From: Nanoarchaeum equitans Kin4-M
Lineage (GTDB): Archaea > Nanobdellota > Nanobdellia > Nanobdellales > Nanoarchaeaceae
Reading direction: 5' to 3'
NCBI GenBank assembly: GCA_000008085.1
Contig: AE017199.1
Span: 120,001-152,000 of the forward strand
Length of the DNA stretch: 32,000 nucleotides
Translations under genes and position numbers: made by a program
Part shown: positions 135 through 31,991 of the stretch, in pieces
Layout of the letters: every line of letters begins with the position of its first letter
Numbering within the stretch: position 1 is the first letter of the stretch
Notes under the pieces: generated by a model
The model's input: only the letters and a program-made list of their open reading frames with translations
What the model was told of the DNA's origin: nothing
Database searches by the model: none

Positions 135-140
135 TTTAAA
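135..140. promoter_or_regulatory. Shared palindromic TATA-like hexamer (TTTAAA) for the divergent pair 114(-)/161(+)
   Basis: 135-21=114 and 140+21=161, the first bases of the two ATGs. The spacer 115..160 is exactly 46 bp. Confidence 0.6.
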
Positions 141-810: not shown

Positions 811-816
811 TTTAAA
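811..816 (-). promoter_or_regulatory. TATA-like box for tRNA-Ala (AAAATTTTTTAAAG on the minus strand)
   Basis: TTTAAA occupies -26..-21 relative to tRNA nucleotide +1 (790). Confidence 0.65.
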
Positions 817-2527: not shown

Positions 2528-3342
2528 CTATACTTTTTCCCATTTATTATAGTTTCCATTGTCGGAACACCAGTTACAGGGCTCCCTTCAATATATTTTT
2601 TTACTTCCTCCTTATTAGATGTAGAAATGGAGTCACAGCTACCTTCAATTTTCCCGTTTTTTATCTCAAAATTCCCTTGACATAGTATAGTAGTAATTTC
2701 TATAGTGCTGGTTTTTTCTTCAATTTTGATTGGAGGATTGTTGTAAATTATCTCATCAAATGGATTGCAAAAATAGTTTTGTGCGAATTCCCCTCCAATG
2801 TTGTTACAAATTTCTTTAGAAACAGGAGAGATACAGAAATAGTATTCATTACCTGCACTCCTTTTTACTAAGCAACTACCTTCATCTTTGGATGGTATTA
2901 CATTATTGTATTCGAACACATCTTCACAATACAAGTATTGGGGTAATAACTTATAGGGATTAACGTTATAATATAGAATATCGAAGGTGTTTAGCTTTAT
3001 GTAAGTAAATAAACATATTGTTTTTTTGCCTTTTAATGCTAAACTTACTGGTATAACAATATAGGGCAGGTCATTTATACATTTAGCGTATAGCTGGGGT
3101 AAAACAGAAACCAAATCTTTATAACACATGTGCAATATTTTTGGATTTTTTAATATAGAACAATCTAAAGAGAATTTATAGTTAGCACATATCTGTTTAG
3201 CGTGCTCTTTAATTATATTTGATTCCCATTGCTTCGATGGAATTTTAGTTTTTTCGAAAACACTATTCATTAATATTAAAGAGAATGCTGCCCCTATTAG
3301 TCCAATAAGAATATATACTATTGTGCTAATCGCGCCTCGCAT
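2482..3342 (-). CDS. Cys-rich hypothetical protein with a prepilin-like N-terminus (operon member D)
   Basis: Starts MRGAISTIVYILIGLIGAAFSLIL. 14 Cys. The motif EYYFCISPVSKEICNNIGGEFAQNYFC is encoded at 2767..2844. Confidence 0.65.
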   Translation of the reverse strand: MRGAISTIVYILIGLIGAAFSLILMNSVFEKTKIPSKQWESNIIKEHAKQICANYKFSLDCSILKNPKILHMCYKDLVSVLPQLYAKCINDLPYIVIPVSLALKGKKTICLFTYIKLNTFDILYYNVNPYKLLPQYLYCEDVFEYNNVIPSKDEGSCLVKRSAGNEYYFCISPVSKEICNNIGGEFAQNYFCNPFDEIIYNNPPIKIEEKTSTIEITTILCQGNFEIKNGKIEGSCDSISTSNKEEVKKYIEGSPVTGVPTMETIINGKKYSCNIKSIKYGGYIQC

Positions 3343-4844: not shown

Positions 4845-5575
4845 TAGCCTTTAGCGCTATCGGATGAAGCTCTATACACAGTAATTATCTTTCTAACTTC
4901 TGTATCTATTTGTACATTGCTTGGTCTGCTATAGAAATAGCAGACATAATAGTTAACAGTAAGCAATTTCATTGTTGGCGATCCATCTACTATATACCCA
5001 GAAGGAGTATAATAGTATATATTATCTTTTTGAATTGGGAATAGGCTATCTAAAACTATTACTAATTCATCAATGGATGGTAAGCTATTTATATAATCTA
5101 TACAGTGCCTCCATCTAAGGATTTTACCTCCAATCCTATAACAATAGGGTTGGTTTGCTTCTAATAATATTGTACCTTTAGAACTGTCGACCCTACAACA
5201 ATAGCTATCTACTACTGGTTTAGTTCCTACTATACCATATCTTATTAAAGCCAATAAATTACCTCTATACTCTTTTGGTATTAGCCTATCGCTTTCCCAT
5301 AGGCCTAAAGAGTCGTGGGCTAATAAATAGGATACCTTTGCGTAAGGCATAGGGGATTCATCGATAGCATAAGGGTAAAAAGTATCGCTTATAATTAAGA
5401 AATACCTATAAGGATTATAATCAAATTCCAAAGGTTTTATCTTATCGCTTATTCCTTTGGTTGTTTTATTTATGGATTGGGCTGTGTTGTTGAATACTAT
5501 ACTAACTACTCCTAAAAACATTATTAGTATTATTAGAGAACCTAACCAAGAGATCATTTTACTAAATCTAAACAA
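4805..5575 (-). CDS. Cys-rich membrane-anchored hypothetical protein (operon member B)
   Basis: 6 Cys, including a CC doublet and PYCYRIGGKILRWRHC. An alternative ATG at 5557 forms an ATGA overlap with the upstream stop (5554..5557). Confidence 0.6.
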   Translation of the reverse strand: MFRFSKMISWLGSLIILIMFLGVVSIVFNNTAQSINKTTKGISDKIKPLEFDYNPYRYFLIISDTFYPYAIDESPMPYAKVSYLLAHDSLGLWESDRLIPKEYRGNLLALIRYGIVGTKPVVDSYCCRVDSSKGTILLEANQPYCYRIGGKILRWRHCIDYINSLPSIDELVIVLDSLFPIQKDNIYYYTPSGYIVDGSPTMKLLTVNYYVCYFYSRPSNVQIDTEVRKIITVYRASSDSAKGYCYYLKTNQNIIK

Positions 5576-7263
5576 TCACGCTCTACCCAAATACCTGTGC
5601 AACCAGCTGGATCGTTAGAAGTGTTAAAGAGTAACTGTTCTTTAATGTTATCCCATTTAATGCAACAAAATCCATTATCTATTGATTCGTTAACTGTTAC
5701 TTTTATATTACCCCAGTTTTCCTTGTTTATAATCAAATAGTTTTTGTAGATCCCATTACCCTCTTTAGGAAGAGTTTTTATTGTTTCGCAATTATTAATG
5801 TATGCGGGAAACACATATATGTTGGGATAACCGAATTTAATAAGTTTTACTATTAATAGGCCATTCTTTTCTTCTATAGGCAAAATATCGATTTGTCCAT
5901 TTAAGGCATTACATATCTCTTCTGGAGCTTCTATAGCTATTAAGCCTTTTTCACAAGGTATTTTGCAAACTTTCCCACTATCGATAATATTTAAATCGTA
6001 TATGCTATATTTAAACTCGGTATTGGCTTTTTCGAAATATTTACTTACTATATTCTCTATTTTCTCTTCTTCAATCCAACAAAGTTTTCCGAATTCCCCT
6101 ATTGTGTAAGAGGTTTTTACTGGCACGTTATTGGCAATTTGTTTGGCAGGGGCAAAATATTGGTTACATATATATACCTTGTTCATACTATTTACTAAGT
6201 CCTTGTATCCTTCATCTTTTGGAGAAATAACATCTACTTTGGTTAAAAATATCTCACTTTCCCAACCGTTTATTGTTTTTCTTGGTATGTCTGGGGAAAC
6301 AGCTTCCAATAGATTGTTTTTAATTATAAAACCTCTATCTACCTTGTACATAAATTCGTTGTAGTCTAAGAATAGCCAATAGAATCTATCAGGATTTAAT
6401 TGAGACCACACCAAATCTCTATATCTAACACAAAAATCTCTATTAGATGGGAAAACTTTTTTATCAGCGATTTCGCCTTTTTTGATAAACGCTACGCATT
6501 TTCCTACTTTTAATGCGTCTACTTTTAGATCCAAATCAGGAGTACGTGAGATCGTTTCAGCTTTTTCCTCTAAAAAATTAATTTTTTCGTTTTCATCCTT
6601 TTCTATAAATTGCTTCAGAATATCTCCATTCCGTAAACTATTAATTTTTACTCCATCTTTTATTTTATAACATAGAGTTGAAACTTTCACATAATTGTCT
6701 GCCTCATTGGGATTCATCTTTATTAATTTTCTGTTTGTATCGTCATATAAAAACAATATATAGCCTTTGTATTGTTTATTGCGTTCATCATAAGATATAT
6801 TATGTATATAGCCTTGGCTGAATAGTTTCAAACAGTCATCAAATTTTATGTTTATCTCACTTATTCCATTATATATAGCGTAAACTATATTTAATTTTCC
6901 TGCACTTATGTCTATATTTTTAGTTTTAGGATGATCATCTTTATCAACAAAGTTAATTTCGAAAGAATTAGAAGAGAGCAAAGTTTGGGAAAGTTTCCAA
7001 GTGTATTTCTCTAGTATAGGCTTACTATAAGGGGGAGCCCTCCTAAAGGGATCATATTTATAAGATAAAGTAAACTCTATGGGCTTCTCCTCTATAGATG
7101 GGGCAAAATTCTCTGTAGCAGTTTCTCCAACTTCTTTTGCTTGTTTAGATAAAGCCGCTAATGGATTTACTGTTTTGAAAAAACTGAAAGATATTATTGC
7201 TATAGACATTAGAGCAACAACTATTGCAGAGATTAGCCATATTATATTGGATAGGGCCCTCAC
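5554..7263 (-). CDS. Large Cys-rich hypothetical protein with a prepilin-like N-terminus (operon member A, first gene)
   Basis: GTG start giving MRALSNIIWLISAIVVALMSIAII. 14 Cys. VCKIPCEKGLIAIEAPEEICNALNGQI. TTTAAA at 7285..7290 lies at -27..-22. Confidence 0.65.
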   Translation of the reverse strand: MRALSNIIWLISAIVVALMSIAIISFSFFKTVNPLAALSKQAKEVGETATENFAPSIEEKPIEFTLSYKYDPFRRAPPYSKPILEKYTWKLSQTLLSSNSFEINFVDKDDHPKTKNIDISAGKLNIVYAIYNGISEINIKFDDCLKLFSQGYIHNISYDERNKQYKGYILFLYDDTNRKLIKMNPNEADNYVKVSTLCYKIKDGVKINSLRNGDILKQFIEKDENEKINFLEEKAETISRTPDLDLKVDALKVGKCVAFIKKGEIADKKVFPSNRDFCVRYRDLVWSQLNPDRFYWLFLDYNEFMYKVDRGFIIKNNLLEAVSPDIPRKTINGWESEIFLTKVDVISPKDEGYKDLVNSMNKVYICNQYFAPAKQIANNVPVKTSYTIGEFGKLCWIEEEKIENIVSKYFEKANTEFKYSIYDLNIIDSGKVCKIPCEKGLIAIEAPEEICNALNGQIDILPIEEKNGLLIVKLIKFGYPNIYVFPAYINNCETIKTLPKEGNGIYKNYLIINKENWGNIKVTVNESIDNGFCCIKWDNIKEQLLFNTSNDPAGCTGIWVERDCLDLVK

Positions 7264-7284
7264 TAAGATAAATAAATAACCCCA

Positions 7285-7290
7285 TTTAAA
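7285..7290. promoter_or_regulatory. Shared palindromic TATA-like element (ATTTAAAT) between 7263(-) and 7309(+)
   Basis: 45-bp spacer. The hexamer ends 22 nt from the GTG at 7263 and 19 nt from the ATG at 7309. Confidence 0.45.
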
Positions 7291-7308
7291 TACTAAGTGC
7301 AGTTAAGT

Positions 7309-9858: not shown

Positions 9859-9878
9859 TAAAATTTAGATTGAGTCTA

Positions 9879-9884
9879 ATTAAA
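9879..9884 (-). promoter_or_regulatory. TATA-like box (TTTAAT) for gene 8980..9858
   Basis: The hexamer ends 21 nt before the ATG at 9858. It sits directly after the thermosome stop codon. Confidence 0.5.
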
Positions 9885-9887
9885 AAT

Positions 9888-11530: not shown

Positions 11531-11536
11531 ATTAAA
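11531..11536 (-). promoter_or_regulatory. TATA-like box (TTTAAT) for the thermosome gene
   Basis: 11531-21=11510, the first base of the ATG. Confidence 0.55.
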
Positions 11537-11630: not shown

Positions 11631-11636
11631 TATAAA
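11631..11636 (+). promoter_or_regulatory. TATA box (TATAAA) for top6B
   Basis: 11636+21=11657, the first base of the GTG start. Confidence 0.55.
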
Positions 11637-11656: not shown

Positions 11657-13360
11657 GTGAGGAGAACCTTCAGAGAAGCTACTATTGCTGAGTTCTTTGA
11701 GAAAAATAAACAATTCTTAGGGTTTGATAGTCCAAGAAAAGCTTTAGTAATGACTGTTAAAGAGCTAGTAGATAACGCCCTCGATGCTACAGAGGAAGCG
11801 AGAATATTGCCTACAATCAAAGTTACATTAAAAGAAGGCAAATATATGACAGTTAGAGTCGAAGATAACGGACCTGGAATACCTTTTAACGAAGTTCCAA
11901 ATGTTTTTGGCAAATTCCTATATGGTACAAAATTCCATGTGTTGAAACAAAATAGAGGCCAACAAGGTATTGGTGCTGCGGCAATAACATTGTATTCCCA
12001 ACTAACAACGGGTAAACCAATTAGGGTATGGGACAAACCAATAGATTCAAACAAAGCTTATTATTATGAAATAATGATTGATACAAAAAGGAACGAGCCT
12101 GAAGTATTAGTAAAAAAGGAAGTAAAACTAAACATAAAACATGGACTAATTGTTGAAGCAGACATAAAGGGAGAATACACAAAAGGAAAACAAAGCGTAG
12201 ACCAATATTTAAAATTAACAGCAGTTGCTAATCCCCATGCAGAAATAATATATAGAACTCCAAAAGGAGAATACATAGTTTTCAAAAGAGGCACAAATGA
12301 ATTGCCTCCCTTGCCTAAAGAAATAAAACCCCATCCCCATGGTATAGAATTGGGACAACTAAAGAAAATGGTTAGCGAACATAAAGGCGATCTAATGGAT
12401 TTCTTAATAAAGAATTTTTCTTCTGTAGGAGAAGACAAAGCAAAAGAAATACTAGCTAGATATATATTCTATAAAGAAGGCAAAGAGGATTTTGAAAAGT
12501 TCTTTAAAAGATTTAGAGGGAGAAAAATTGATATAAAATCATTAACTAGTGAAGATTTGGAATTATTGCTAAAAGCAATGAGAGAGACCAAATTAAAAAT
12601 GCCTTCAGCCAAAGCTTTAATACCGATTGGAGAAAAAAATTTGCAAATTGGTATTACTAAAGAGTATGATGTAGAATATTTGGCAGTAAAAACTAGGAAA
12701 CCTAAAGTATATTCCGGGGGTATACCATTTTTGGTTGAAGTAGCTATAGGCTATGGAGATTTTGAAAAAGCTGAAATATTAAGGTTTGCCAATAGAACCC
12801 CATTATTGTATAAAGCAGGAGAATGTGCAATAGTTAAAGCTATAAAAGATATAAACTGGAAACGCTATGGTTTTGAGGTAGAGAACAATTTGCCAAAAAA
12901 TGCTTTGATATTAGTACATATTGCCAGTGTTAAAGTCCCATATACTAGTGAATCAAAAGAGGCAATTGCAGATATACCAGAGGTAAGGGAAGAAATAAAA
13001 AGAGCTTTACAAGAAGTCGCAAGAAAAGTTCAGATATATATTAAAAAGAAAGAGGAAACCAAAGAATTGGCAGAGAAATATTTAAGATTTTATGCCTATG
13101 GAAAAGAGATAGAAAGATATTTGCCTAAGCTTATTGACAAAGATGTTGATTCAGTAGTAACTAAAACCATATTAAAGAGATTAGAAGAAGAGCTATTAGA
13201 AAGGATAAAGAACAACAAAACCATTGTAACACATATAGAGAATAAAGACTACGAAACTGCTAAAAAGCTAATAAAGAAAATGGTGATGCCATTGATTAAG
13301 AAAAAAATAATTGATGAAAGCTTTATAGATAGGTTAATCCAACTCTACAATGTCTCCTAA
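11657..13360 (+). CDS. top6B: DNA topoisomerase VI subunit B
   Basis: AEFFEKNKQFLGF, the Bergerat-fold N box ELVDNALDA, and NRGQQGIGAAA. GTG start. Confidence 0.9.
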   Translation: MRRTFREATIAEFFEKNKQFLGFDSPRKALVMTVKELVDNALDATEEARILPTIKVTLKEGKYMTVRVEDNGPGIPFNEVPNVFGKFLYGTKFHVLKQNRGQQGIGAAAITLYSQLTTGKPIRVWDKPIDSNKAYYYEIMIDTKRNEPEVLVKKEVKLNIKHGLIVEADIKGEYTKGKQSVDQYLKLTAVANPHAEIIYRTPKGEYIVFKRGTNELPPLPKEIKPHPHGIELGQLKKMVSEHKGDLMDFLIKNFSSVGEDKAKEILARYIFYKEGKEDFEKFFKRFRGRKIDIKSLTSEDLELLLKAMRETKLKMPSAKALIPIGEKNLQIGITKEYDVEYLAVKTRKPKVYSGGIPFLVEVAIGYGDFEKAEILRFANRTPLLYKAGECAIVKAIKDINWKRYGFEVENNLPKNALILVHIASVKVPYTSESKEAIADIPEVREEIKRALQEVARKVQIYIKKKEETKELAEKYLRFYAYGKEIERYLPKLIDKDVDSVVTKTILKRLEEELLERIKNNKTIVTHIENKDYETAKKLIKKMVMPLIKKKIIDESFIDRLIQLYNVS

Positions 13361-13780
13361 ACTGTATAGCTCTTCTTTCGCTTTTTCTTGGGATAAAGCC
13401 ACTTTTTTCTTTTCCATTATTTTTATGCCCAATAGTTTCTCTATTTTTTTAGCTAGCTTCTCACTAGGATAATAATCCCCGCTCTCTATTTTACTTATTG
13501 TATTTATATCTGTGTGTAATAGCTTTGCTAAATCTGATTGAGTTAAACCCTTTTCTTCTCTAGCCTTCTTTATTAGTTCATTAAAATTGGGCACAAACTC
13601 TATTATTTCTTCAACAATTGGTTTGCGTTCCTCTTTAGATATTGTTTTTTTCAAATCTATTATTTCTAGGATTTTACCATAGCTAGAACAGCTTTTGCAA
13701 ACTTTTAGCTTGGTGCCTTCTATTTCTATAATGTAAAGTTTGTCTCTAATGGGATCTCCACAAATTTCACAATAATACAT
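13334..13780 (-). CDS. mbf1: Archaeal multiprotein bridging factor 1 (zinc ribbon plus XRE-type HTH)
   Basis: CEICG...CKSC at the N-terminus and GLTQSDLAKLLHTDINTISKIESG at the C-terminus. Its 3' end overlaps top6B by 27 nt. Confidence 0.8.
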   Translation of the reverse strand: MYYCEICGDPIRDKLYIIEIEGTKLKVCKSCSSYGKILEIIDLKKTISKEERKPIVEEIIEFVPNFNELIKKAREEKGLTQSDLAKLLHTDINTISKIESGDYYPSEKLAKKIEKLLGIKIMEKKKVALSQEKAKEELYSLGDIVELD

Positions 13781-13800
13781 GTTATGGCTATATAGTATTT

Positions 13801-13806
13801 TTTAAA
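13801..13806. promoter_or_regulatory. Shared palindromic TTTAAA for the divergent pair mbf1(-)/rpl4(+)
   Basis: 13801-21=13780 and 13806+21=13827. The spacer is exactly 46 bp. Confidence 0.6.
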
Positions 13807-13826
13807 ACCTTTGCTAGTTAAGACCA

Positions 13827-14633
13827 ATGGAAGTACCTTTATACAATTTACAAGCCTCGCAAGTGGGCAATATAGAATTGCCCCCACAATTTAATGAAAA
13901 AATAAGATTTGATGTTATAAAAAGGGCTTTCTTAGCTATACAATCCCATAAAAGACAACCTTATGGGGCAAGCCCTATTGCTGGTAAACAACATAGTGCA
14001 TGGACTTCTAAGAGAAGGAGAAGCTGGAGAACTAGCTATGGAAGAGGTATATCAAGGGTTTCCAGGGCTATATTAAGAAGGCATGGCGCATTATTTTATT
14101 GGGTAGCTAGAAACATAGCACAAGCTGTAAAAGGTAAAAAAGCCCACCCCCCAAAGGCTGAAAAGGATTGGTATGAAAAAATAAACAAAAAAGAGAGAAG
14201 ACTAGCAATAAGGTCTGCTTTAGCCGCAACTAAAGAATTAGATTTAGTAAAAGCTAGGGGACACATAATAGATAAGCCTGTTCCAATAGTTGTAGATGGG
14301 TTAGAACAATTGAGAAAAACAAAAGAGATACAACAATTATTATTAAAATTGGGATTAGAAAAGGAATTAGAAAGGGTATATGAAATCAAAAGGAGGGCTG
14401 GTAAAGGTAAGAGAAGAGGTAGAGCATATATAGAAAGAAAAGGCCCATTAATTGTGGTAAATGACTATAACGAACAACTATTCAAAGCTGTAGATAACAT
14501 TCCAGGGTTAGATATAGAGGAAGTCCCTAATTTGAATGTAGAACTACTCGCCCCCGGGGCGAAACCAGGAAGGCTATTAATTATTTCTAAAGATGCTTTA
14601 GAAACTCTTAGAGAGAGGAAACTTTTCTTTTAA
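13827..14633 (+). CDS. rpl4: 50S ribosomal protein uL4 (L4P/L1e)
   Basis: QPYGASPIAGKQHSAWTSKRRRSWRTSYGRGISRVSR is typical of archaeal L4. Confidence 0.9.
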   Translation: MEVPLYNLQASQVGNIELPPQFNEKIRFDVIKRAFLAIQSHKRQPYGASPIAGKQHSAWTSKRRRSWRTSYGRGISRVSRAILRRHGALFYWVARNIAQAVKGKKAHPPKAEKDWYEKINKKERRLAIRSALAATKELDLVKARGHIIDKPVPIVVDGLEQLRKTKEIQQLLLKLGLEKELERVYEIKRRAGKGKRRGRAYIERKGPLIVVNDYNEQLFKAVDNIPGLDIEEVPNLNVELLAPGAKPGRLLIISKDALETLRERKLFF

Positions 14634-15271: not shown

Positions 15272-15277
15272 TTTAAA
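15272..15277 (-). promoter_or_regulatory. TATA-like box (TTTAAA) for gene 14598..15251
   Basis: 15272-21=15251. It lies between the tRNA-Pro 3' end and the ATG. Confidence 0.55.
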
Positions 15278-15279
15278 AA

Positions 15280-15353
15280 TGGGGCCGCCGGGATTTGAAC
15301 CCGGGACCTCCGGCGCCCCAGGCCGGCGCCCTACCAAGCTGGGCCACGGCCCC
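15280..15353 (-). tRNA. tRNA-Pro (anticodon GGG)
   Basis: The reverse complement folds as GGGGCCG/TG/GCCC-AGCTTGGTA-GGGC/G/CCGGC-CTGGGGC-GCCGG/AGGTC/CCGGG-TTCAAAT-CCCGG/CGGCCCC/A. No encoded CCA. Confidence 0.95.
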
Positions 15354-15372
15354 AAGCATAATATAAAAACTA

Positions 15373-15378
15373 TTTAAA
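15373..15378 (-). promoter_or_regulatory. TATA-like box for tRNA-Pro
   Basis: TTTAAA lies at -25..-20 relative to tRNA +1 (15353). It overlaps the stop codon region of the YjbQ gene. Confidence 0.55.
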
Positions 15379-15775: not shown

Positions 15776-17045
15776 TTATACATCTATTGGGGATTGGCCC
15801 ATAGTATCCTGTAGCCTCTTCATAATTCTCTTTTATCAAACTATGCAATTTATTAGACAATTCTATTTGTTTTACCCATTCTCCTTCTAATTTTGATTGG
15901 CGAGCCATAGTTCCTAAAAATCTAACCATCTCTTTAGATAAAGGCTTTGGCTTACATAAAGCCCATGGTGTACCGGGTAAGGGCATAAAATAATGAGCCC
16001 TTACTTTCCCTCCTTTAGAAATAATCCATTTCATCAATTCTATAGTATTTCTATCGCTTTCTTCATCTTCATAAGGAGTACCGACGATAAAATCGACTAT
16101 TGGAGTAAACCCATATTCTATAGAATATTCTACAGCCCTCTTTATTGTTTCCACATCATGTAGTCTATGCATTAGTTTTAGTATTCTATTATCACCACTT
16201 TGCGCCCCAATAATTATTTTTCTATTGTCAGCATATTTTAATAACAATTCTAAAGTTTCTGGTATAACGAATTCTGGTCTTACTTCACTAGGAAAAGTTC
16301 CGAAAAATAGCCTTCTTCCTTCTTTTCTTAGAGGTTGTAACGCCCTAAGCAAAGCCTCTAGTTTTTCCAAAACCAATATAGCACCTGGGGATCCATAAGC
16401 AAAAGCGTTAGGAGAAATGTAACGCATATCTCTTAGATAGCGGGAATGTTTTACTATTTGGTCTATAGGTCTATGTCTCATTCTAAATCCCTTAAAGAAT
16501 GGGGTTTGACAATAATTGCAACCAAAGGGACAACCCCTACTAATCTCTATAGGGCCTACCATTCTTATAGATTCTGCGAATGGTGGATATTTATAAAAAT
16601 CTTCTACTTTTGCAAAACCTGTAAATTTGTAACCATTTAAATTAAAAGCTAACCCTCTAATAGTTAACAAATCCTTATTGATTGCTTTGTTCTTTTTTAG
16701 ATTTTCCAATAAATAATATAAAGTTTCTTCTCCTTCTCCTACTACAGCGATATCGAAACCCATCTTTAATGTATGTCTAGGCATAGCACTAGCATGGTAA
16801 CCTCCAGCGATGGCTATAGCATTTATTTTGCTTTTTAGCATTTGGATTTCTTTTTTTACTTCCCAAACCTCTGTGCTATAGAAAGAATATAAAACAATTT
16901 TTGGTTTTGTTTTGATTAGATCTTCGAAGCTTCTCGCTATTGCTATTTCATTTATATCAAAGCCTTGTTTCTCTAATGCGCCTAATAGATAAGAAAAAGC
17001 ATTTCTATTGTTTTTAGTTAACCTTATAGCTATCACAGTATGCAT
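15711..17045 (-). CDS. Radical SAM protein with an N-terminal B12-binding-like domain
   Basis: SRGCPFGCNYCQTPF (CxxxCxxC) preceded by a Rossmann-like domain. TATAAA at 17057..17062 predicts a leaderless in-frame GTG start at 17036. Confidence 0.75.
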   Translation of the reverse strand: MHTVIAIRLTKNNRNAFSYLLGALEKQGFDINEIAIARSFEDLIKTKPKIVLYSFYSTEVWEVKKEIQMLKSKINAIAIAGGYHASAMPRHTLKMGFDIAVVGEGEETLYYLLENLKKNKAINKDLLTIRGLAFNLNGYKFTGFAKVEDFYKYPPFAESIRMVGPIEISRGCPFGCNYCQTPFFKGFRMRHRPIDQIVKHSRYLRDMRYISPNAFAYGSPGAILVLEKLEALLRALQPLRKEGRRLFFGTFPSEVRPEFVIPETLELLLKYADNRKIIIGAQSGDNRILKLMHRLHDVETIKRAVEYSIEYGFTPIVDFIVGTPYEDEESDRNTIELMKWIISKGGKVRAHYFMPLPGTPWALCKPKPLSKEMVRFLGTMARQSKLEGEWVKQIELSNKLHSLIKENYEEATGYYGPIPNRCINDEQTNKNDNQNKNPQKERNN

Positions 17046-17071
17046 ATAAATGTCTATTTATATTTTCGTAT

Positions 17072-17365
17072 ATGGATTTAGAAGAGATTAGAAAAAAGAA
17101 ATTGGAAGAATTAAAAAAGGAAGAAGCAAAGAGAAAATTGTTAGAGCAATTAGAATCGAATGTTATGCAGTATCTAACTTCGGAAGCAAAACAAAGGTTA
17201 TATAATATAAAAATGGCCCACCCTGAAAAATATGAATTGGCATTACAAATATTATATAGGGTAATACAGCAAACCCCAACAATTATTGATGATACAACAT
17301 TAAAAAAGCTATTGGCTAAGCTATTCCAAAAAAGGGAGCCAAAGATAAGATTTATAAGGAAGTAA
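17072..17365 (+). CDS. PDCD5/TFAR19-like DNA-binding protein (COG2118)
   Basis: 97 aa with a basic coiled N-terminus and LTSEAKQRLYNIKMAHPEKYELALQIL. TATAAA at 17045..17050 lies at -27..-22. Confidence 0.65.
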   Translation: MDLEEIRKKKLEELKKEEAKRKLLEQLESNVMQYLTSEAKQRLYNIKMAHPEKYELALQILYRVIQQTPTIIDDTTLKKLLAKLFQKREPKIRFIRK

Positions 17366-18210: not shown

Positions 18211-18216
18211 TTTAAA
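18211..18216 (-). promoter_or_regulatory. TATA-like box (TTTAAA) for the operon 18190..17352
   Basis: 18211-21=18190 (GTG). It lies 8 nt from the tRNA-Lys 3' end. Confidence 0.5.
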
Positions 18217-19791: not shown

Positions 19792-20154
19792 TTAGTGAGC
19801 TTTTACGGATTTATAGAATTTTTTGAATACAGAGCATAGAGTTGCTACTACTGCTACTATAACGATTAACAATTCTAACAAATCTATGTATTTTGTATAT
19901 GCTGCTACTCCTGCAAAGCCCTTAGCAACTCCAAAAGACAATAATACTCCTGCTAATAATAGCTTTAACAACTCTAAGAAAGAGTTAACCAAATATAATG
20001 CTCCAATCTCTTCGTTTACAACATATTTGGATAATAGGTAAAATAAATAGAAAGATGTCGCTAATGCTAATGATGGTGCCCCTATTACTGCTGCTACTGC
20101 CATTGCTATTACAAATACCAAACCCAAAACCACATCTCTCATTTCGAGGTTCAT
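19792..20154 (-). CDS. Small polytopic membrane protein, unknown function
   Basis: Ala/Val/Leu-rich helices. The track starts at 20172, but the in-frame ATG at 20154 (MNLEMRDVV...) lies exactly 21 nt from TTTAAA 20175..20180. Confidence 0.5.
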   Translation of the reverse strand: MNLEMRDVVLGLVFVIAMAVAAVIGAPSLALATSFYLFYLLSKYVVNEEIGALYLVNSFLELLKLLLAGVLLSFGVAKGFAGVAAYTKYIDLLELLIVIVAVVATLCSVFKKFYKSVKAH

Positions 20155-20174
20155 ATAATTAATTGCAATCATCT

Positions 20175-20180
20175 TTTAAA
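20175..20180 (-). promoter_or_regulatory. TATA-like box (TTTAAA) for gene 19792..20154
   Basis: 20175-21=20154. Confidence 0.5.
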
Positions 20181-20259: not shown

Positions 20260-23145
20260 TTAAATAACATAAAAGTTGCCTTGTTTTAGAAGTTCTATCT
20301 TTTCTTTTGGTAGTTGTATTTTATATAGATCAATACATCTTAGTATTTCTTTTGCGTCTCTAGCTAAATATATACATCTTTTCCATTCAGGAATAGAGAA
20401 ATTGTTCGGATAAATTGTTTTGTAAATTTTTATTGGTTGTATTTCCCATGTTATGGCATGTTTATTATAGAGGGTTAACAAACTATATATATTCCTTATG
20501 TTTCTGCCTATTGCTCTATAGCCATCGTAAAATTTAAAGTATTTAGAATTGTCAAAGAAATAAAGCTTAACCCATAGCATATTTTCTGCTTTATTCATAA
20601 AGAATCCATAGAAATACCAGTTTGCATAAGAAGGCTTTTTAAATTCCATTGCTTTGCCAAACAATAATGTATTTTCCAAATCTATAGTTGGAGCTAAATA
20701 CAAACAACCATAGCCATTTTTGTTTAGTATTATCTTTTTATCAAAGATATAAACGCATCTTAATGGATAAGCCCTTTCATTTATTGCTTTAATTCCATAC
20801 GGGGTAGGTATTATGTCATACATGTATATTGTGCCATTAACTGGAATAGCATATTTCAAATCATTTGAAGTCAATACTACTAGTTTTTTCCCAAATTTAA
20901 CCCAAGGGTTTGCATAGCCTATTTCTGTTTTATACAAAGTGTGCGCTATATAATAATATTGGGTTGCAGTTCCATTTATTATTGGTTTGTCAAATTCTAG
21001 TTTTATTTTTAGAACATGTGAACAATAATTGCCATTAACATCTGGTATGCATTTTTCACCATAGTTTTCATCATCGTTCGGGAAATCTAATATATATTCT
21101 ATAGTATTATTGTTTATTACTTTTGCTTTCGCCCTTGTCACTATAGTAAATATATCGTAGTTTTCGTTACTTCCTAATTTAAGGAAAGCTTGGCTTTTAC
21201 CTATATCGGTATAATGTATTAATAAATATGTAGGTCTCGTCCCATTATAATTGTATTTAACATTTACTCCGAACCACTCTTTTAGTTTCTCTTTTATTGT
21301 GCTATTAAAGTTGGCATGTGCATATAATAATTCTAATGCCTCTGTTTCATTGTATGTGCCTAAAACATACCTACCAAATAGATGGTTCCAATAGGGATAA
21401 TAATTACCCCCATCTAAAAAAGTAACTCTATTTGTTTTGCCCAATATATTAGCAAAATATTGAGTTATATATCCATAATCCCACCAATGCGTTATTAAAG
21501 CATCTTTTTCCATTTTGTTAAATATTTGTTTTAACCCTATCCAATCTATTTCGCCTAAAGCGAATACTGGTTTTACAAAATAACCAGTAACAAATAATAA
21601 AGAAGCAAACAATATAGAACTAATAGATGGGAATAAGAACATAGCTAATATTGTTGTACCTACTGGTATAGCAGTTATTGGGTTTATATGTTTGTAATAC
21701 ACTAGAATTATTAGTATGGACAAAGCTATCGATACATATTTTATATATTTCTTGTTTATGTTCAAGTTTTCCAATTTTTTAAAAGCGTAACCAACAAGAA
21801 TTGGGACAGCAAAAGCACTGTAAAATATGGTTCTAACTGCTATTTGCCCTATAGCTAAGAAAAACATATTGCTTAATACAAATATTTTAGATAAGTTGGG
21901 CTTAGTGTAAAATATATTATACAAAATTATAACTAAATAAAATAATAAACTAGGTTTAAAACCAATTACATAGAAAGAGGCTAGTACATAGAACGCTAAT
22001 AAAATACTTTCCGTTAATGTTTCTCCAGCCAAGAATGCAGATATTACGGTAAAAGCTATACCAACCCATTCTAATGAATCATACCAATCTATAAATTGAG
22101 TGGGTCTTGCCTCAGCTACTGTGGACATAAATCTATTACCTGAATAAATATTAGACATTTTTAGTCTTTCAATTATAGATGGGAATAGGGGCATCAAAAA
22201 TAACAACGATAATATTGTATATAACATTAGTTTGTGGGTTTTGTCTTTTATTTTTAGCCTAGTTTCTAAAAATTCAGCTAATCCTAATGTGAATAATAAT
22301 ATACCACTAGCATATTGGGATGTATGCAAAACCCAAGGGGTTATATTTAAAGCGTAAGCGATAGCCATAACAAAGAATATGCTTAAACCCGGTATAACAA
22401 ATTCTTTTATTGGCTTATTGTGTATCCATCTTAATAACTCCATTATTTCTAGAGCGAATATAAATACAGCAGAGCCACCCCATGCTAAATAAAGAGAAAC
22501 AATCGATACTAATAAACTAATGGAATATAAAATTTTGTATTTTGGATTTGTTTCTTTTATTAGCCTATAATAAAGGAATAAAATTAAAATATAAAGAAAA
22601 GAAGCAATTGGTTCCTTTTCGAATCTTCCTGCTAATAATCTATAACCATTAGCAGGAAATACCGCAAATAGCAAAGCTGGTAGCCCAGTTCCAACCAATT
22701 CTTTAGATATATAATAGTATAAGATAACAGACAAACCGAAAAAGAATGGATTAGCTAATAATACAACCAAATTTTCGTAATTGTATATAGAAGTATTTAG
22801 ACCGAAAAAGTTTGCTATTAGCGATAAAAGCATAGTTAAGGGTTTTAGAAAATATAATACTATTGGATATAGAAAATGAACAGGATGTGGTGGAGTACTA
22901 CAGAAAGGAACATAGGCTAAACAATCTGGGAATATATTTATACCATGTAATACACTAAGGAAATATCTATAAGCCCTATAAGGATCTGGGCCGAGCAATT
23001 CTTCGGGATAAAGAGAACCTATTGTTACCGCTTTAAATAGAAATCCAGATAGAAATAACAGAATTAAAAATACAGGTTCTTTGTATTTTTCAATTTTTTC
23101 TAGCATTTTTAATCGAATTTGTGTTTTAGTCTTAGTCTGGGCCAT
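20260..23145 (-). CDS. aglB: Archaeal oligosaccharyltransferase AglB (STT3 family)
   Basis: 961 aa with a long polytopic N-terminal region followed by the catalytic motif THWWDYGY. The start overlaps the rpoB' 3' end; an alternative ATG lies at 23106. Confidence 0.85.
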   Translation of the reverse strand: MAQTKTKTQIRLKMLEKIEKYKEPVFLILLFLSGFLFKAVTIGSLYPEELLGPDPYRAYRYFLSVLHGINIFPDCLAYVPFCSTPPHPVHFLYPIVLYFLKPLTMLLSLIANFFGLNTSIYNYENLVVLLANPFFFGLSVILYYYISKELVGTGLPALLFAVFPANGYRLLAGRFEKEPIASFLYILILFLYYRLIKETNPKYKILYSISLLVSIVSLYLAWGGSAVFIFALEIMELLRWIHNKPIKEFVIPGLSIFFVMAIAYALNITPWVLHTSQYASGILLFTLGLAEFLETRLKIKDKTHKLMLYTILSLLFLMPLFPSIIERLKMSNIYSGNRFMSTVAEARPTQFIDWYDSLEWVGIAFTVISAFLAGETLTESILLAFYVLASFYVIGFKPSLLFYLVIILYNIFYTKPNLSKIFVLSNMFFLAIGQIAVRTIFYSAFAVPILVGYAFKKLENLNINKKYIKYVSIALSILIILVYYKHINPITAIPVGTTILAMFLFPSISSILFASLLFVTGYFVKPVFALGEIDWIGLKQIFNKMEKDALITHWWDYGYITQYFANILGKTNRVTFLDGGNYYPYWNHLFGRYVLGTYNETEALELLYAHANFNSTIKEKLKEWFGVNVKYNYNGTRPTYLLIHYTDIGKSQAFLKLGSNENYDIFTIVTRAKAKVINNNTIEYILDFPNDDENYGEKCIPDVNGNYCSHVLKIKLEFDKPIINGTATQYYYIAHTLYKTEIGYANPWVKFGKKLVVLTSNDLKYAIPVNGTIYMYDIIPTPYGIKAINERAYPLRCVYIFDKKIILNKNGYGCLYLAPTIDLENTLLFGKAMEFKKPSYANWYFYGFFMNKAENMLWVKLYFFDNSKYFKFYDGYRAIGRNIRNIYSLLTLYNKHAITWEIQPIKIYKTIYPNNFSIPEWKRCIYLARDAKEILRCIDLYKIQLPKEKIELLKQGNFYVI

Positions 23146-24920
23146 ATTCCTAGGGAAGTTAACTCATCTAAAAATAGTTTAAATGCATAGCTCATTTCTA
23201 CATAACTTATTTTCTCTGTTTCTCCACAAACTGGGCAATAAGCAGTGCCTTTTTCTTTGTTTTCTATTGCTATAGCCCCACATTTTTCACATACTGGGAC
23301 TTTTACTAAATCAGAACCAAATCTTTCATATAAACTAATTGCTGCACCATGAGATAAAATTACATCAGTTTCCATTTCTCCAAATCTTAAACCACCTTCT
23401 CTGGATTTACCTTCTGTAGGTTGCCTTGTAAGTATAGCCATGGGCCCTCTAGCCCTTGCATGCAATTTGTTTGCTGCTAAGAATTTCAATTTATGATACC
23501 ACATCACTCCTACAAATATTTTTACTTTGTATTCCTCCCCAGTTATTGGGTCATACATTGTTTCTGTGCCATCCTCTCTAAAACCTAATCTTAATAATTG
23601 TTTTCTTAAATCTTCTACAGGCTCTTCTTCCCATGGGGTACCATCAACAGCTTTCCCTCTTAAAGAAGCAACTTTTCCTGCTACCAATTCTATTATTTGC
23701 CCTATTGTCATCCTACTAGGCAAACCATGGGGGTTAAATATTAGGTCTGGCACTATACCACTCGCAGTAAATGGCATATCTGATGGAGGTACAATTAACC
23801 CTATAACACCTTTTTGACCATGTCTAGATGAAAACTTATCTCCAATCTCTGTAGGTCTTTCCATTCTTATTCTAACTCTTACTTTTAGATTGCTGTCTTC
23901 TCCTTCAGTAACTAATACACTATCAACAATACCCTCTTCTTCGCTTCTAACTGTTATAGAGGAATCTCTTTTTTGCAATGTTGCAGCTCCAAGCAATGCT
24001 AGTTCTCCCCCTTCTAAAAACCTTGGTGGGGAAATTCTACCAATTAATACATCTTTTCCTTTAACTTCTGCTTCTGGGTATACAATACCATCACTTTCTA
24101 AATGTCTATAATGTTTTTCTCCCTTGTAGCCTCTAACATCGGGACTTGGCACAGTTATTTCATCACTTAATCCTAAAGCATATTTCCTTTCTACTGCTTC
24201 ATAAGGTCTAAAGTACATTGTTCTAGTAAAACCAAAGTCTATAGCATTTCTATTAATTACTAAAGCATCCTGTGTGTTGTAACCTTCGTAAGCCATTACT
24301 GCAACAACCATATTATAGCCTGCGGGTCTTTCATCAAACCTAATTAAATCATGCACTATTGTTCTAACCAAAGGTTTTTGTAATGTTTGTGCTACATGCA
24401 CATCGGATTCGAATCTTAATGGGTAAGCCACACTATATAAACCTAGGGCCTGTCTTTGAGTTCTTTCTCCTCTATTTAGCCTAGCAGATTGGTTAAACCT
24501 CGCATATGGAACTGCAGCGGATAATATTCCTAAAATTACTTGAGGACCTATTTCTAAATGTGTATGTTCTGGAGTTAAATCCTCTATATCTAATGCTATA
24601 TATGCGTTTTCTTCTTCAGCAGCATCTAAATATTCTATAATACCTTGTTTAACTAAATCATCCCATTTTAGTTTGCCTTGTGCTAATAACTCTATATGCT
24701 TTTGAGTTAATTTTGGTTTCCCATTCTCTACAACAATTAAAGGTCTAACTATTCTACCTCCATCTGTATAAATATAAATATCATTTTGTTCATCCAGATA
24801 AATATTAACTGTTTCGGGCAAATAACCTAAACGTCTTTTTTTCCTAAATTCTTGAACGAACTTTTCAGGGTTATCGGTTTTGCCTATATATTTGCCATTC
24901 AAATATATATCGCCAACCAC
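23109..24920 (-). CDS. rpoB1: DNA-directed RNA polymerase subunit B' (C-terminal part of the split B subunit)
   Basis: SSRHGQKGV, NPHGLPSRMTIGQ, RFGEMETDVILSHGA and the C-terminal zinc ribbon CEKCG...CPVCG. GTG start. Confidence 0.9.
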   Translation of the reverse strand: MVGDIYLNGKYIGKTDNPEKFVQEFRKKRRLGYLPETVNIYLDEQNDIYIYTDGGRIVRPLIVVENGKPKLTQKHIELLAQGKLKWDDLVKQGIIEYLDAAEEENAYIALDIEDLTPEHTHLEIGPQVILGILSAAVPYARFNQSARLNRGERTQRQALGLYSVAYPLRFESDVHVAQTLQKPLVRTIVHDLIRFDERPAGYNMVVAVMAYEGYNTQDALVINRNAIDFGFTRTMYFRPYEAVERKYALGLSDEITVPSPDVRGYKGEKHYRHLESDGIVYPEAEVKGKDVLIGRISPPRFLEGGELALLGAATLQKRDSSITVRSEEEGIVDSVLVTEGEDSNLKVRVRIRMERPTEIGDKFSSRHGQKGVIGLIVPPSDMPFTASGIVPDLIFNPHGLPSRMTIGQIIELVAGKVASLRGKAVDGTPWEEEPVEDLRKQLLRLGFREDGTETMYDPITGEEYKVKIFVGVMWYHKLKFLAANKLHARARGPMAILTRQPTEGKSREGGLRFGEMETDVILSHGAAISLYERFGSDLVKVPVCEKCGAIAIENKEKGTAYCPVCGETEKISYVEMSYAFKLFLDELTSLGIWPRLRLKHKFD

Positions 24921-24940: not shown

Positions 24941-24946
24941 ATTAAA
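24941..24946 (-). promoter_or_regulatory. TATA-like box (TTTAAT) for rpoB'
   Basis: 24941-21=24920, the first base of the GTG. Confidence 0.5.
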
Positions 24947-27267: not shown

Positions 27268-27272
27268 ATATT

Positions 27273-27278
27273 TTTAAA
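27273..27278 (+). promoter_or_regulatory. TATA-like box (TTTAAA) for gene 27299..28270
   Basis: 27278+21=27299. Confidence 0.55.
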
Positions 27279-27287
27279 TTTTATACA

Positions 27288-27293
27288 TTTAAA
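27288..27293 (-). promoter_or_regulatory. TATA-like box (TTTAAA) for the PEBP gene
   Basis: 27288-21=27267. Confidence 0.55.
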
Positions 27294-27298
27294 GCTAT

Positions 27299-29420: not shown

Positions 29421-29716
29421 CGAATATCTTTTTTATTATAAACATATAGAATGGGTTTGCCATTTTTTAGCTTAACAAAGCCAAATCCCTCAATTTTTAC
29501 ACAATTAATCTTTATGCCTTTCATTTCTATGCATTTGTCATAGCAAATTCGATAGTAACACCAATCGTTAATACATTGTTTGTATTTTATTTCGCCCATA
29601 AATTTTACCCTTTCTCCCATATACTCTTTTATATCTCTAAAATTTATGGGCTTTTGCAAATTTTGTATAATAAATAAAATTGCTATGCCAAAAACTGCCA
29701 ATAAGTTATACCGCAT
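29411..29716 (-). CDS. Small secreted or anchored Cys-rich protein, unknown function
   Basis: Starts MRYNLLAVFGIAILFII and has 6 Cys (CINDWCYYRICYDKC...). It overlaps the upstream gene by 11 nt. Confidence 0.5.
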   Translation of the reverse strand: MRYNLLAVFGIAILFIIQNLQKPINFRDIKEYMGERVKFMGEIKYKQCINDWCYYRICYDKCIEMKGIKINCVKIEGFGFVKLKNGKPILYVYNKKDIRCI

Positions 29717-30581: not shown

Positions 30582-30601
30582 TTTATATTTAGCAATAGAT
30601 A

Positions 30602-30607
30602 TTTAAA
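30602..30607. promoter_or_regulatory. Shared palindromic TTTAAA for the divergent pair 30581(-)/30628(+)
   Basis: 30602-21=30581 and 30607+21=30628. The spacer is exactly 46 bp. Confidence 0.6.
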
Positions 30608-30627
30608 TTTTGATCACACCAAAGCAT

Positions 30628-31945: not shown

Positions 31946-31965
31946 CTATTATTTATAGAAAAATT

Positions 31966-31971
31966 TTTAAA
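31966..31971. promoter_or_regulatory. Shared palindromic TTTAAA for atpD(-) and a plus-strand tRNA-like gene
   Basis: 31966-21=31945 and 31971+21=31992. The spacer is exactly 46 bp. The AAAATTTTTAAAT context is identical to the tRNA-Lys promoter. Confidence 0.6.
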
Positions 31972-31991
31972 TATCTATCTATTGCAATCTC

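What the first reader, a model, noticed from the sequence alone, without database searches (positions are those of the whole stretch)
13780..13827. Exact 46-bp bidirectional promoter cassettes: one palindromic TTTAAA placed 21 nt from both divergent start points
Seen: four divergent pairs have spacers of exactly 46 bp (20+6+20), each with a single central TTTAAA.
- 114(-)/161(+), hexamer 135..140.
- 13780(-)/13827(+), hexamer 13801..13806.
- 30581(-)/30628(+), hexamer 30602..30607.
- 31945(-)/31992(+, a tRNA-like gene), hexamer 31966..31971.
A fifth pair, 7263/7309, has a 45-bp spacer.

The same rule holds for unidirectional units. A hexamer of TTTAAA, TTTAAT or TATAAA ends 21 nt before the first base of the start codon at 9858, 11510, 11657, 15251, 24920, 27267 and 27299. 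It also ends 21 nt before tRNA +1 at 790 and 18297, and 20 nt before it at 15353. Several of these leaderless starts are GTG (11657, 24920, 31945).

Established: archaeal TATA boxes are centred about 26-27 nt upstream of the transcription start.

Inference: nearly every transcription unit here is leaderless, and a symmetric TATA element is read in both directions. That makes a fixed-length minimal divergent promoter.
Basis: partly seen in the sequence, partly recalled or inferred. Interest (0 to 1): 0.65.

Follow-up and report, generated by a model that had tools for sequence, protein, structure and literature searches.

The report
Shared-TATA divergent promoters, Nanoarchaeum equitans
In the tiny genome of Nanoarchaeum equitans, back-to-back genes often share one palindromic TATA box placed exactly 20 bases from each start point, which gives a 46-base gap; the pattern is real and tidy, but it follows from promoter rules already known in archaea.

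Summary
The window is Nanoarchaeum equitans Kin4-M: its L4 protein is NEQ146 at 100% identity.

- Four divergent pairs (114/161, 13780/13827, 30581/30628, 31945/31992) have 46-bp spacers with TTTAAA at 20+6+20. Automatic gene calls and two tRNA finders give the same start points.
- CAY-N20-TTTAAA-N20-RTG occurs 3 times against 0.03 expected.
- Across 51.8 kb, exact TTTAAA lies 20 nt before 19 of 64 starts. Every other offset has 0-3.

The length is a mode, not a law. The 16 divergent spacers also include 47, 48, 50, possibly 45, a crossed 31-bp form, and 60-146 bp. Relatives show 46-52 bp.

The mechanism is largely known.
- TTTAAA 26 nt upstream of the transcription start is published for N. 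equitans tRNAs, which have no leaders.
- About 72% leaderless genes were predicted for this genome.
- Divergent starts around one shared TATA, 49-52 bp apart, are documented in Pyrococcus and Thermococcus.

So 46 bp is the geometric result of two leaderless starts sharing one palindromic box. mRNA start sites were not mapped here. This is a new member of a known kind, of modest interest.

The parts
13781..13826 (.). Focal 46-bp divergent spacer between the MBF1-like HTH gene (13334-13780, minus strand) and ribosomal protein L4 / NEQ146 (13827-14633, plus strand)
   Evidence: The independent gene calls in L009 (9954/10001) give the same starts.
13801..13806 (.). Palindromic TATA box (box A) TTTAAA, 20 nt from both start codons
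115..160 (.). 46-bp spacer between the SufBD-like gene (minus strand, start 114) and the translin-like gene (161-718, plus strand). TTTAAA lies at 135-140.
30582..30627 (.). 46-bp spacer between a 291-aa membrane protein gene (29706-30581, minus strand) and a 67-aa ORF (30628-30831, plus strand). TTTAAA lies at 30602-30607.
   Evidence: (L005 6638/6685).
31946..31991 (.). 46-bp spacer between the ATP synthase subunit D gene (31349-31945, minus strand, GTG start) and an 87-nt intron-containing tRNA that starts at 31992 (plus strand). TTTAAA lies at 31966-31971.
27268..27298 (.). 31-bp divergent spacer with two crossed TATA boxes (27273-27278 serves the plus-strand gene at 27299; 27288-27293 serves the minus-strand gene at 27267). 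Each box is 20 nt from its own start and 5 nt from the other start.
7264..7308 (.). Possible 45-bp shared-TATA spacer with TTTAAA at 7285-7290 (21 nt to GTG 7263, 18 nt to ATG 7309). The start at 7263 is uncertain.
811..816 (-). TTTAAA box 20 nt upstream of tRNA-Ala +1 (790). It serves as a calibration promoter.
   Evidence: PMC3491384.
18318..18323 (-). TTTAAA box 20 nt upstream of tRNA-Lys +1 (18297)
15373..15378 (-). TTTAAA box 19 nt upstream of tRNA-Pro +1 (15353)
9879..9884 (-). TTTAAT box at -26..-21 of the ATG at 9858 (unidirectional unit)
11531..11536 (-). TTTAAT box at -26..-21 of the thermosome gene ATG at 11510
11631..11636 (+). TATAAA box at -26..-21 of the topoisomerase VI subunit B gene GTG at 11657
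15272..15277 (-). TTTAAA box at -26..-21 of the ATG at 15251
18211..18216 (-). TTTAAA box at -26..-21 of the GTG at 18190
24941..24946 (-). TTTAAT box at -26..-21 of the GTG at 24920 (C-terminal half of RNA polymerase subunit B)

Best explanation
These are minimal archaeal core promoters in the compacted genome of Nanoarchaeum equitans.

- A TATA box (box A, consensus TTTAAA, often T-extended on its 5' side) binds TBP. With TFB and RNA polymerase it sets initiation at a purine 26 nt downstream of the first base of the hexamer.
- In this organism the first gene of most transcription units has the A of ATG, or the G of GTG, at exactly that position. The mRNAs would therefore be leaderless, just as the tRNAs are.
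- TTTAAA is its own reverse complement and TBP binds it almost symmetrically. One box can therefore nucleate a pre-initiation complex facing either way.
- When two divergent leaderless units share the box, the gap between their start points must be 20+6+20 = 46 bp, with the two starts 47 bp apart.
- Which way a given complex faces is presumably set by the flanking BRE-like bases; an A at -31 is the only clear signal. The two complexes occupy the same DNA, so initiation in the two directions is mutually exclusive at any one moment.
- The fixed length is a consequence of geometry plus strong selection for short intergenic DNA. It is not a copied sequence module.

Shown here: the spacing statistics, the equal distance for tRNA +1 and start codons, the purine at +1, the absence of Shine-Dalgarno motifs, the lack of homology among the spacers, and recurrence in relatives.

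Taken from the literature: the distance from TTTAAA to the transcription start in N. equitans, and shared-TATA bidirectional transcription in Thermococcales.

Inferred: the mRNA transcription starts, actual use of the box in both directions at these loci, and the role of the flanking bases.
For: - Identity: NEQ146 at 100% identity, contig length 490,885; NEQ121.
- Geometry.
- Exact TTTAAA sits at gap 20 before 19 of 64 starts, with 0-3 at other gaps.
- The five tRNAs with a TATA-like hexamer at gap 20 and the 22 protein genes that share it align in one register. Position +1 is A in 17 and G in 10, never a pyrimidine.
- The cassette pattern occurs 3 times against 0.03 expected.
- Close relatives have single central TATA boxes in divergent spacers of 46, 47, 49, 49, 51, 52, 52 and 52 bp. 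In L012 and L013 the L4 gene again has a 46-bp spacer, but with a different neighbouring gene.
- Shine-Dalgarno-like 4-mers occur upstream of only 6 of 57 genes.
- Literature: N. equitans has box A TTTAAA 26 nt upstream of tRNA starts and 27 nt upstream of the CRISPR-leader start, with RNA-seq confirming no tRNA leaders (PMC3491384). 71.8% leaderless genes were predicted for N. equitans (PMC3160421). In P. furiosus a BRE-TATA-BRE arrangement gives two transcripts 49 bp apart from one TATA in vitro (PMC6640164). In T. kodakarensis divergent starts are predominantly 52 bp apart around a shared TATA (bioRxiv 10.1101/2020.01.31.928960).
Against: - No transcription start of any N. equitans mRNA was available, so leaderlessness and firing in both directions are inferred from spacing alone.
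- The BRE-like A at -31 is present on both sides in only one of the four cassettes (31945/31992) and on one side in the other three. One direction may therefore be weak or unused.
- 42 TTTAAA copies lie inside coding sequence in 48 kb, so the hexamer alone cannot be sufficient.
- About a quarter to a third of candidate first genes lack a box at gap 19-21. The radical SAM gene at 17045 is an example.
- Only about 60 kb, or 12% of the genome, could be examined.
Confidence: 0.75

Rival explanations
1. The central box serves only one of the two units. The other unit is transcribed from a different AT-rich element, or by read-through, and carries a short leader. On this view the mirror-image distance is tolerated rather than functional.
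For: - The BRE-like A at -31 is one-sided in three of the four cassettes.
- Each spacer holds further AT-rich runs, such as TTATATAT and TATATAG.
- Intragenic TTTAAA copies show that the hexamer alone does not suffice.
Against: - The distance is exact on both sides in five independent, non-homologous spacers.
- The other AT-rich runs lie 6-15 nt from the near start and more than 30 nt from the far start. Neither matches the sharp gap-20 rule.
- In one cassette the partner is a tRNA, and tRNA 5' ends in this organism are known to be primary (PMC3491384).
Confidence: 0.15
2. The result is chance or an annotation artefact. In a 31% G+C genome TTTAAA is common, and the reader may have chosen start codons that fit.
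For:
- Outside the window only 1 of 6 divergent pairs measures exactly 46 bp.
Against: - Automatic gene calls and two tRNA finders give the same starts.
- Shuffles give 0.03 cassettes against 3 observed, and 3.4 against 14 for the one-sided pattern.
- TTTAAA is actually under-represented in the window, at 46 against 82 expected.
- The annotation-free test peaks sharply at gap 20.
Confidence: 0.03
3. The 46-bp units are copies of one sequence module, that is, a duplicated or mobile promoter cassette.
For: All have the same length and the same central hexamer. In a relative, the L4 gene keeps a 46-bp spacer despite having a different neighbouring gene.
Against: - Outside the hexamer the four spacers are 7-19 of 40 positions identical in either orientation, which is about the level expected for AT-rich sequence.
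- Their arms are not self-complementary.
- The L4 spacer of the relative does not resemble the N. equitans one.
Confidence: 0.02

Closest known systems
N. equitans tRNA, tRNA-half, CRISPR-leader and H/ACA sRNA promoters (box A TTTAAA 26-27 nt upstream of the start; 'life without RNase P'; Randau 2012, PMC3491384, and the work it cites)
   Same: Same organism, same hexamer, same distance. Four of the six tRNAs examined have TTTAAA ending 21 nt before +1, and one more (tRNA-Thr) has TTATAA there. One of the four cassettes drives such a tRNA.
   Different: The published rule was stated for small RNAs. Here the same ruler lands on the first base of ATG or GTG in protein genes, and one box is shared by two divergent units.
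Shared-TATA bidirectional promoters of Thermococcales (P. furiosus, PMC6640164; T. kodakarensis, bioRxiv 10.1101/2020.01.31.928960)
   Same: One nearly symmetric TATA (TTTAAA core) lies midway between two divergent starts, and the separation is quantised. The separation equals twice the TATA-to-start distance. A rarer, shorter class (36 bp in T. kodakarensis) resembles the 31-bp crossed pair here.
   Different: - Separation is 49-52 bp there and 47 bp here.
- There the second transcript is mostly antisense or non-coding noise and the mRNAs have leaders.
- Here both products are genes and both appear leaderless, so the quantisation shows up directly in the distance between start codons.
- Transcription starts there are measured; here they are inferred.
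Leaderless mRNAs of archaea (Sulfolobus, Pyrobaculum, Haloferax); computational prediction of 71.8% leaderless genes in N. equitans (PMC3160421)
   Same: The TATA box sits at a promoter-like distance from the start codon rather than from an upstream transcription start. There is no Shine-Dalgarno motif. First genes of units follow the rule and internal genes do not (3 of 18).
   Different: The peak here is unusually sharp, at one dominant offset (19 at gap 20, 3 at gap 21). Close relatives peak more broadly at 21-23.
Bacterial bidirectional promoters with symmetric -10 elements (bioRxiv 10.1101/2020.01.31.928960)
   Same: The principle is the same: a symmetric core element read on both strands gives divergent starts at a preferred spacing.
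   Different: The machinery differs (sigma70 and the -10 element, 18-bp offset), and the element is not a TBP site.

Membership tests
Archaeal TATA/BRE (box A) core promoter | An A/T-rich TATA element at a fixed distance (about 25 nt) upstream of the transcription start | tested here: met
   The hexamer lies at -26..-21 of tRNA +1 for 5 of 6 tRNAs and one base closer for the sixth. tRNA 5' ends in this organism are published as primary starts (PMC3491384). The same offset applies to 22 protein genes.
Archaeal TATA/BRE (box A) core promoter | A purine-rich BRE directly upstream of the TATA box that orients TFB | tested here: inconclusive
   A at -31 occurs in 21 of 27 aligned promoters and A at -29 in 16 of 27. 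No stronger consensus emerges.
Archaeal TATA/BRE (box A) core promoter | Initiation at a purine | tested here: met
   Position +1 is A in 17 and G in 10 of 27 promoters, and no TTG start is among them. This concerns the predicted +1 only.
Archaeal TATA/BRE (box A) core promoter | TBP/TFB binding and a mapped primary 5' end | not testable with these tools
   No RNA or binding data for these loci were available.
Shared-TATA bidirectional promoter (Thermococcales type) | A single TATA element midway between two divergent start points | tested here: met
   Five spacers of 46 bp have the box at 20 and 20 nt. Further pairs have it at 20/21, 21/21 and 19/23.
Shared-TATA bidirectional promoter (Thermococcales type) | A preferred start-to-start separation equal to twice the TATA-to-start distance (49-52 bp in the described cases) | tested here: met
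   The modal separation is 47 bp, which is 2 x 20 + 6 + 1. It is predicted exactly by the one-sided rule. The starts are inferred, not measured.
Shared-TATA bidirectional promoter (Thermococcales type) | BRE on both sides (BRE-TATA-BRE) | tested here: inconclusive
   A at -31 is present on both sides only at 31945/31992, and on one side in the other three cassettes.
Shared-TATA bidirectional promoter (Thermococcales type) | Two divergent primary transcripts demonstrated | not testable with these tools
   This needs dRNA-seq or in vitro transcription.
Leaderless mRNA | The transcription start coincides with the first base of the start codon | not testable with these tools
   This is inferred from the equal box-to-+1 distance for tRNAs and start codons.
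Leaderless mRNA | No Shine-Dalgarno motif upstream | tested here: met
   Anti-16S 4-mers occur upstream of 3 of 27 genes with a promoter box at gap 20-21 and 3 of 30 other genes, and most of those are the trivial TGAT.
Repeated or mobile sequence cassette | Sequence similarity between copies beyond the core motif | tested here: not met
   Only 7-19 of 40 positions are identical outside the hexamer, in either orientation.

The most novel reading that the evidence does not exclude
N. equitans may have reduced transcription control of divergent genes to a hard-wired 46-bp unit.
- More than half of its divergent pairs would be served by a single TBP site, with both start codons (or a tRNA +1) at mirror-image positions accurate to the base.
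- The same very precise TATA-to-start ruler that lets this organism live without RNase P would also fix mRNA 5' ends on the start codon.
- Partner genes would then compete for one pre-initiation complex, with the split set only by a few flanking bases.

If so, this would be the shortest natural two-gene control region known and a clean system for studying how pre-initiation complex orientation is chosen.
Probability: 0.45. Interest if true: 0.45.

Novelty: new member of a known kind. Interest (0 to 1): 0.3.

Why it matters
- It shows how far genome compaction can push promoter architecture. Intergenic DNA shrinks to what one TBP site requires: 46 bp for two units, and 27-32 bp between tandem units.
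- It gives a simple rule, a box at -26..-21, that corrects start-codon annotation in Nanoarchaeota. Several automatic calls in this region are visibly wrong by that rule.
- It offers compact natural templates for testing how BRE asymmetry sets the direction of an archaeal pre-initiation complex.
- It does not change the current understanding of archaeal transcription, because every ingredient is already documented.

Tried and rejected
- **Genome-wide test.** This could not be run. N. equitans is not retrievable from the large collections.
  - An L4 peptide scan of genome contigs found no relative.
  - A pattern that matches two sites inside the window (TTTAAA-N20-GGGCCCGTAG) returned 41 genome loci and 77 metagenome loci, none of them N. 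equitans.
  - I extended the window piecewise instead, to about 60 kb.
- **Strain variation in the cassettes.** All contigs L001-L010 are 99.96-100% identical to the window. No test of substitutions without indels was possible.
- **Avoidance of TTTAAA inside genes.** The idea was that the hexamer is avoided to prevent spurious promoters. The window has 46 copies against 82 expected. However, a synonymous-codon shuffle shows the same depletion for AAATTT, TATATA, ATATAT and TAAATT, so the effect is not specific.
- **A repeated cassette.** Rejected.
- **Orthologous cassette in relatives.** A KaiC homologue search aimed at extending N. equitans returned only relatives of 92% identity or less as cluster representatives. 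In the three relatives fetched, KaiC has no S27 neighbour, so the 47-bp S27/KaiC cassette could not be compared between species.
- **Failed runs and unavailable papers.** A fuzzy-regex comparison and a first codon-shuffle script timed out. Torarinsson et al. 2005 and Randau et al. 2008 are not held, so I cite them only through papers that describe them.
- **Literature search.** No paper in the held library describes bidirectional promoters in Nanoarchaeum.
Full report
**Identity of the window**

The L4 protein encoded at 13827-14633 is NEQ146 of Nanoarchaeum equitans Kin4-M: 100% identity, longest contig 490,885 bp. A neighbouring gene just outside the window is NEQ121. G+C is about 31%. Contigs from several sequencing runs (L001-L010) are 99.96-100% identical to the window. 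I used them to extend it:
- 9.8 kb to the left and 9.9 kb to the right, giving a 51.8-kb composite;
- later a further 8.1 kb to the left (L136).

About 60 kb, or 12% of the genome, was examined in total.

**Check of the observation**

Every coordinate is right.
- The spacers 115-160, 13781-13826, 30582-30627 and 31946-31991 are each 46 bp, with a single TTTAAA leaving 20 nt on each side.
The collection's own gene calls give the same starts for the three protein-protein pairs.
- ARAGORN and Rfam both place the 5' end of an 87-nt intron-containing tRNA at 31992.
- The listed one-sided cases are also correct.
- The 45-bp 'fifth pair' depends on a GTG at 7263. On identical DNA the automatic caller accepts that start once and rejects it twice in favour of ATG 7209.

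**Is it more than chance?**

| Test | Observed | Expected or background |
|---|---|---|
| TTTAAA-N20-RTG in the window | 14 | 3.4 +/- 1.8 in dinucleotide shuffles |
| CAY-N20-TTTAAA-N20-RTG in the window | 3 | 0.03 |
| Exact TTTAAA at gap 20, among 64 called starts | 19 | 0-3 at every other gap from 0 to 64 |
| Same, with TTTAAT, TATAAA and TTATAA also allowed | 27 | – |
| Annotation-free test (any ATG/GTG opening an ORF of at least 80 codons) | 16 at gap 20, 5 at gap 21 | at most 2 elsewhere |

TTTAAA is not common here. The window has 46 copies against 82 expected.

**Divergent pairs**

With automatic calls plus tRNAs, the composite has 14 divergent pairs. Their spacers are 104, 50, 46, 77, 99 (or 45), 146, 46, 26, 110, 31, 46, 46, 18 and 47 bp.

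- The 18-bp pair consists of two TTG calls. In-frame ATG and GTG codons lie 21 nt either side of the TTTAAA, which gives a 48-bp spacer. The resulting N-termini look more plausible.
- L136 adds a 46-bp pair with TATAAA/TTTATA in the central six positions, and a 60-bp pair.
- So 5 of 16 pairs measure exactly 46 bp, and 8-9 of 16 are shared-single-TATA spacers of 45-50 bp.
- Under a uniform null over 18-146 bp, five or more of 16 at one preset value has a probability of about 1e-7 (my arithmetic).
- Outside the window, which is the fair test of a hypothesis generated inside it, the six spacers are 104, 50, 48, 47, 46 and 60 bp. The class is confirmed; exactness to the base is confirmed only in part.

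**What the arrangement is**

Aligning the 27 promoters shows:
- the hexamer at -26..-21;
- T enrichment at -28 and -27;
- A at -31 in 21 of 27 and A at -29 in 16 of 27, the only BRE-like signal;
- a G-poor stretch from -15 to -9;
- A (17) or G (10) at +1, never a pyrimidine.

tRNAs and protein genes fall in the same register. Shine-Dalgarno-like words are essentially absent.

Of 44 candidate first genes of transcription units, 25 have a TATA-like hexamer at gap 20 and 29 at gap 19-21. Among operon-internal genes the figure is 3 of 18.

Tandem intergenic spacers cluster at 27-32 nt. That is just enough for the box and a few upstream bases.

The four 46-bp spacers share no sequence outside the hexamer and are not palindromic overall. 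'Cassette' therefore describes a geometry, not a copied element.

**Calibration from the literature**

- For N. equitans, RNA-seq and earlier work place box A (TTTAAA) 26 nt upstream of tRNA and tRNA-half starts and 27 nt upstream of the CRISPR-leader start. They also confirm that tRNAs have no 5' leader, since the organism lacks RNase P (PMC3491384).
- A comparative computational study assigned N. equitans 71.8% leaderless genes, the top of its archaeal range (PMC3160421).
- In P. furiosus, a nearly symmetric TATA with a TTTAAA core and BRE elements on both sides yields two transcripts 49 bp apart in vitro, and this is common genome-wide (PMC6640164).
- In T. kodakarensis, divergent starts are predominantly 52 bp apart around a shared TATA, with a rarer 36-bp class (bioRxiv 10.1101/2020.01.31.928960).

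**Mechanism**

Given these points, the most economical reading runs as follows.
1. TBP binds the palindromic box.
2. TFB and its flanking contacts decide the direction.
3. Polymerase starts at the purine 26 nt from the near edge of the box.
4. The start codon or tRNA +1 sits exactly there.

Two divergent units sharing the box are then necessarily 46 bp apart.

The 31-bp pair at 27267/27299 is the alternative compact solution. It has two boxes, each 20 nt from its own start and 5 nt from the other. It parallels the shorter class seen in Thermococcus.

Pairs of 60-146 bp have room for separate boxes.

In both compact forms the two pre-initiation complexes overlap, so initiation in the two directions should be mutually exclusive at any instant. 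That last step is inference.

**Relatives**

Contigs from related Nanoarchaeota were examined. Their L4 proteins are 74-75% identical to NEQ146 and their KaiC proteins 79-92% identical to the N. equitans protein.
- Divergent spacers with a single central TATA measure 46, 47, 49, 49, 51, 52, 52 and 52 bp.
- The box-to-start offset is broader there, mostly 21-23 nt.
- In L012 and L013 the L4 gene again has a 46-bp spacer, although its divergent neighbour is a different gene and the spacer sequence is unrelated.
- The 323-aa membrane protein gene at 27299 has a 31-bp crossed spacer in N. equitans. Its counterpart in L012 has a 51-bp shared-TATA spacer with yet another neighbour.

The architecture is therefore re-created after rearrangement rather than inherited as a block. 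The sharp 46-bp mode is a feature of N. equitans, and the wider class belongs to the group.

**What remains unproven**

- No mRNA 5' end was available.
- The A at -31 is present on both sides in only one cassette, so one direction may be weak.
- 42 intragenic TTTAAA copies in 48 kb show that the hexamer alone is not sufficient.
- The genome-wide distribution could not be computed, because N. equitans is not retrievable from the large collections.

**Verdict**

All the ingredients are published: box A at -26 in this organism, predominance of leaderless genes, and shared-TATA bidirectional promoters with quantised spacing. I found no paper in the held library that describes the 46-bp start-to-start quantisation in N. 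equitans itself.

I class it as a new member of a known kind, of modest interest. Its practical uses are start-codon correction and a compact template for studying how pre-initiation complex orientation is chosen.

Noticed in passing
window 27268-27298: A 31-bp divergent spacer holds two TTTAAA boxes in a crossed arrangement. Each box is 20 nt from its own gene's start and only 5 nt from the other gene's start, so the two pre-initiation complexes must overlap. It resembles the rarer 36-bp class reported for T. kodakarensis.
   Followed up: partly
L006 about 3626-3675 (equivalent to window 38271-38320, just outside the window): The N-terminal half of RNA polymerase subunit B and a glycosyltransferase are both called with TTG starts 18 bp apart. 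In-frame GTG and ATG codons lie 21 nt either side of the TTTAAA, which gives a 48-bp shared-TATA spacer and more plausible N-termini.
   Followed up: partly
window 20142-20180: On identical DNA the automatic callers give two different starts for this gene, 20172 and 20142. The promoter rule (TTTAAA at 20175-20180, gap 20) points to the in-frame ATG at 20154 instead.
   Followed up: partly
composite of L001 + window + L006; for example window 9859-9887 and L006 9837-9867: Same-strand intergenic spacers cluster at 27-32 nt, and the upstream stop codon lies just before the TATA box. The SecY promoter box begins 5 nt after the 3' end of the tRNA that starts at 31992.
   Followed up: partly
whole window: TTTAAA is under-represented, at 46 copies against 82 expected from dinucleotide shuffles. 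A synonymous-codon shuffle shows similar depletion of other AT-only hexamers, so this is not specific avoidance of promoter boxes.
   Followed up: yes
window 1928-7263, minus strand: Five consecutive overlapping ORFs (186-569 aa) have no Pfam match. They look like they start with a hydrophobic N-terminal segment (judged by eye) and contain many cysteines. Four of the five carry a short motif such as C..IGGEF, and they are only weakly similar to one another (best E about 1e-3). They may be a lineage-specific family of secreted or surface proteins in one operon.
   Followed up: partly
window 23109-24920 (minus strand) and L006 2157-3638: RNA polymerase subunit B is split into two genes about 13 kb apart on opposite strands. 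Each has its own TATA box at the standard distance.
   Followed up: no
window 15353-15378: tRNA-Pro is the one tRNA whose box is 19 nt rather than 20 nt from the 5' end given by Rfam. ARAGORN adds one more base at the 5' end. Its true first nucleotide is therefore unclear.
   Followed up: no
L133 6800-7150 (GCA_964573185.1, a relative with 88% KaiC identity): This relative encodes an RNase P protein subunit (Rpp14 family). Not all close relatives share the RNase P-free state of N. equitans. Its box-to-start offsets are broader, at 21-23 nt.
   Followed up: no
L001 891-1391 and 898-969: A called 166-aa ORF starts 7 nt upstream of tRNA-Gly, overlaps it on the same strand, and shares its promoter box. 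It is either a spurious call or a tRNA-mRNA co-transcript.
   Followed up: no
window 17045-17072: This 26-bp divergent spacer fits the rule only on one side. The plus-strand gene has TATAAA at gap 21, overlapping the other gene's start codon. The radical SAM gene at 17045 has no box at the standard distance.
   Followed up: partly
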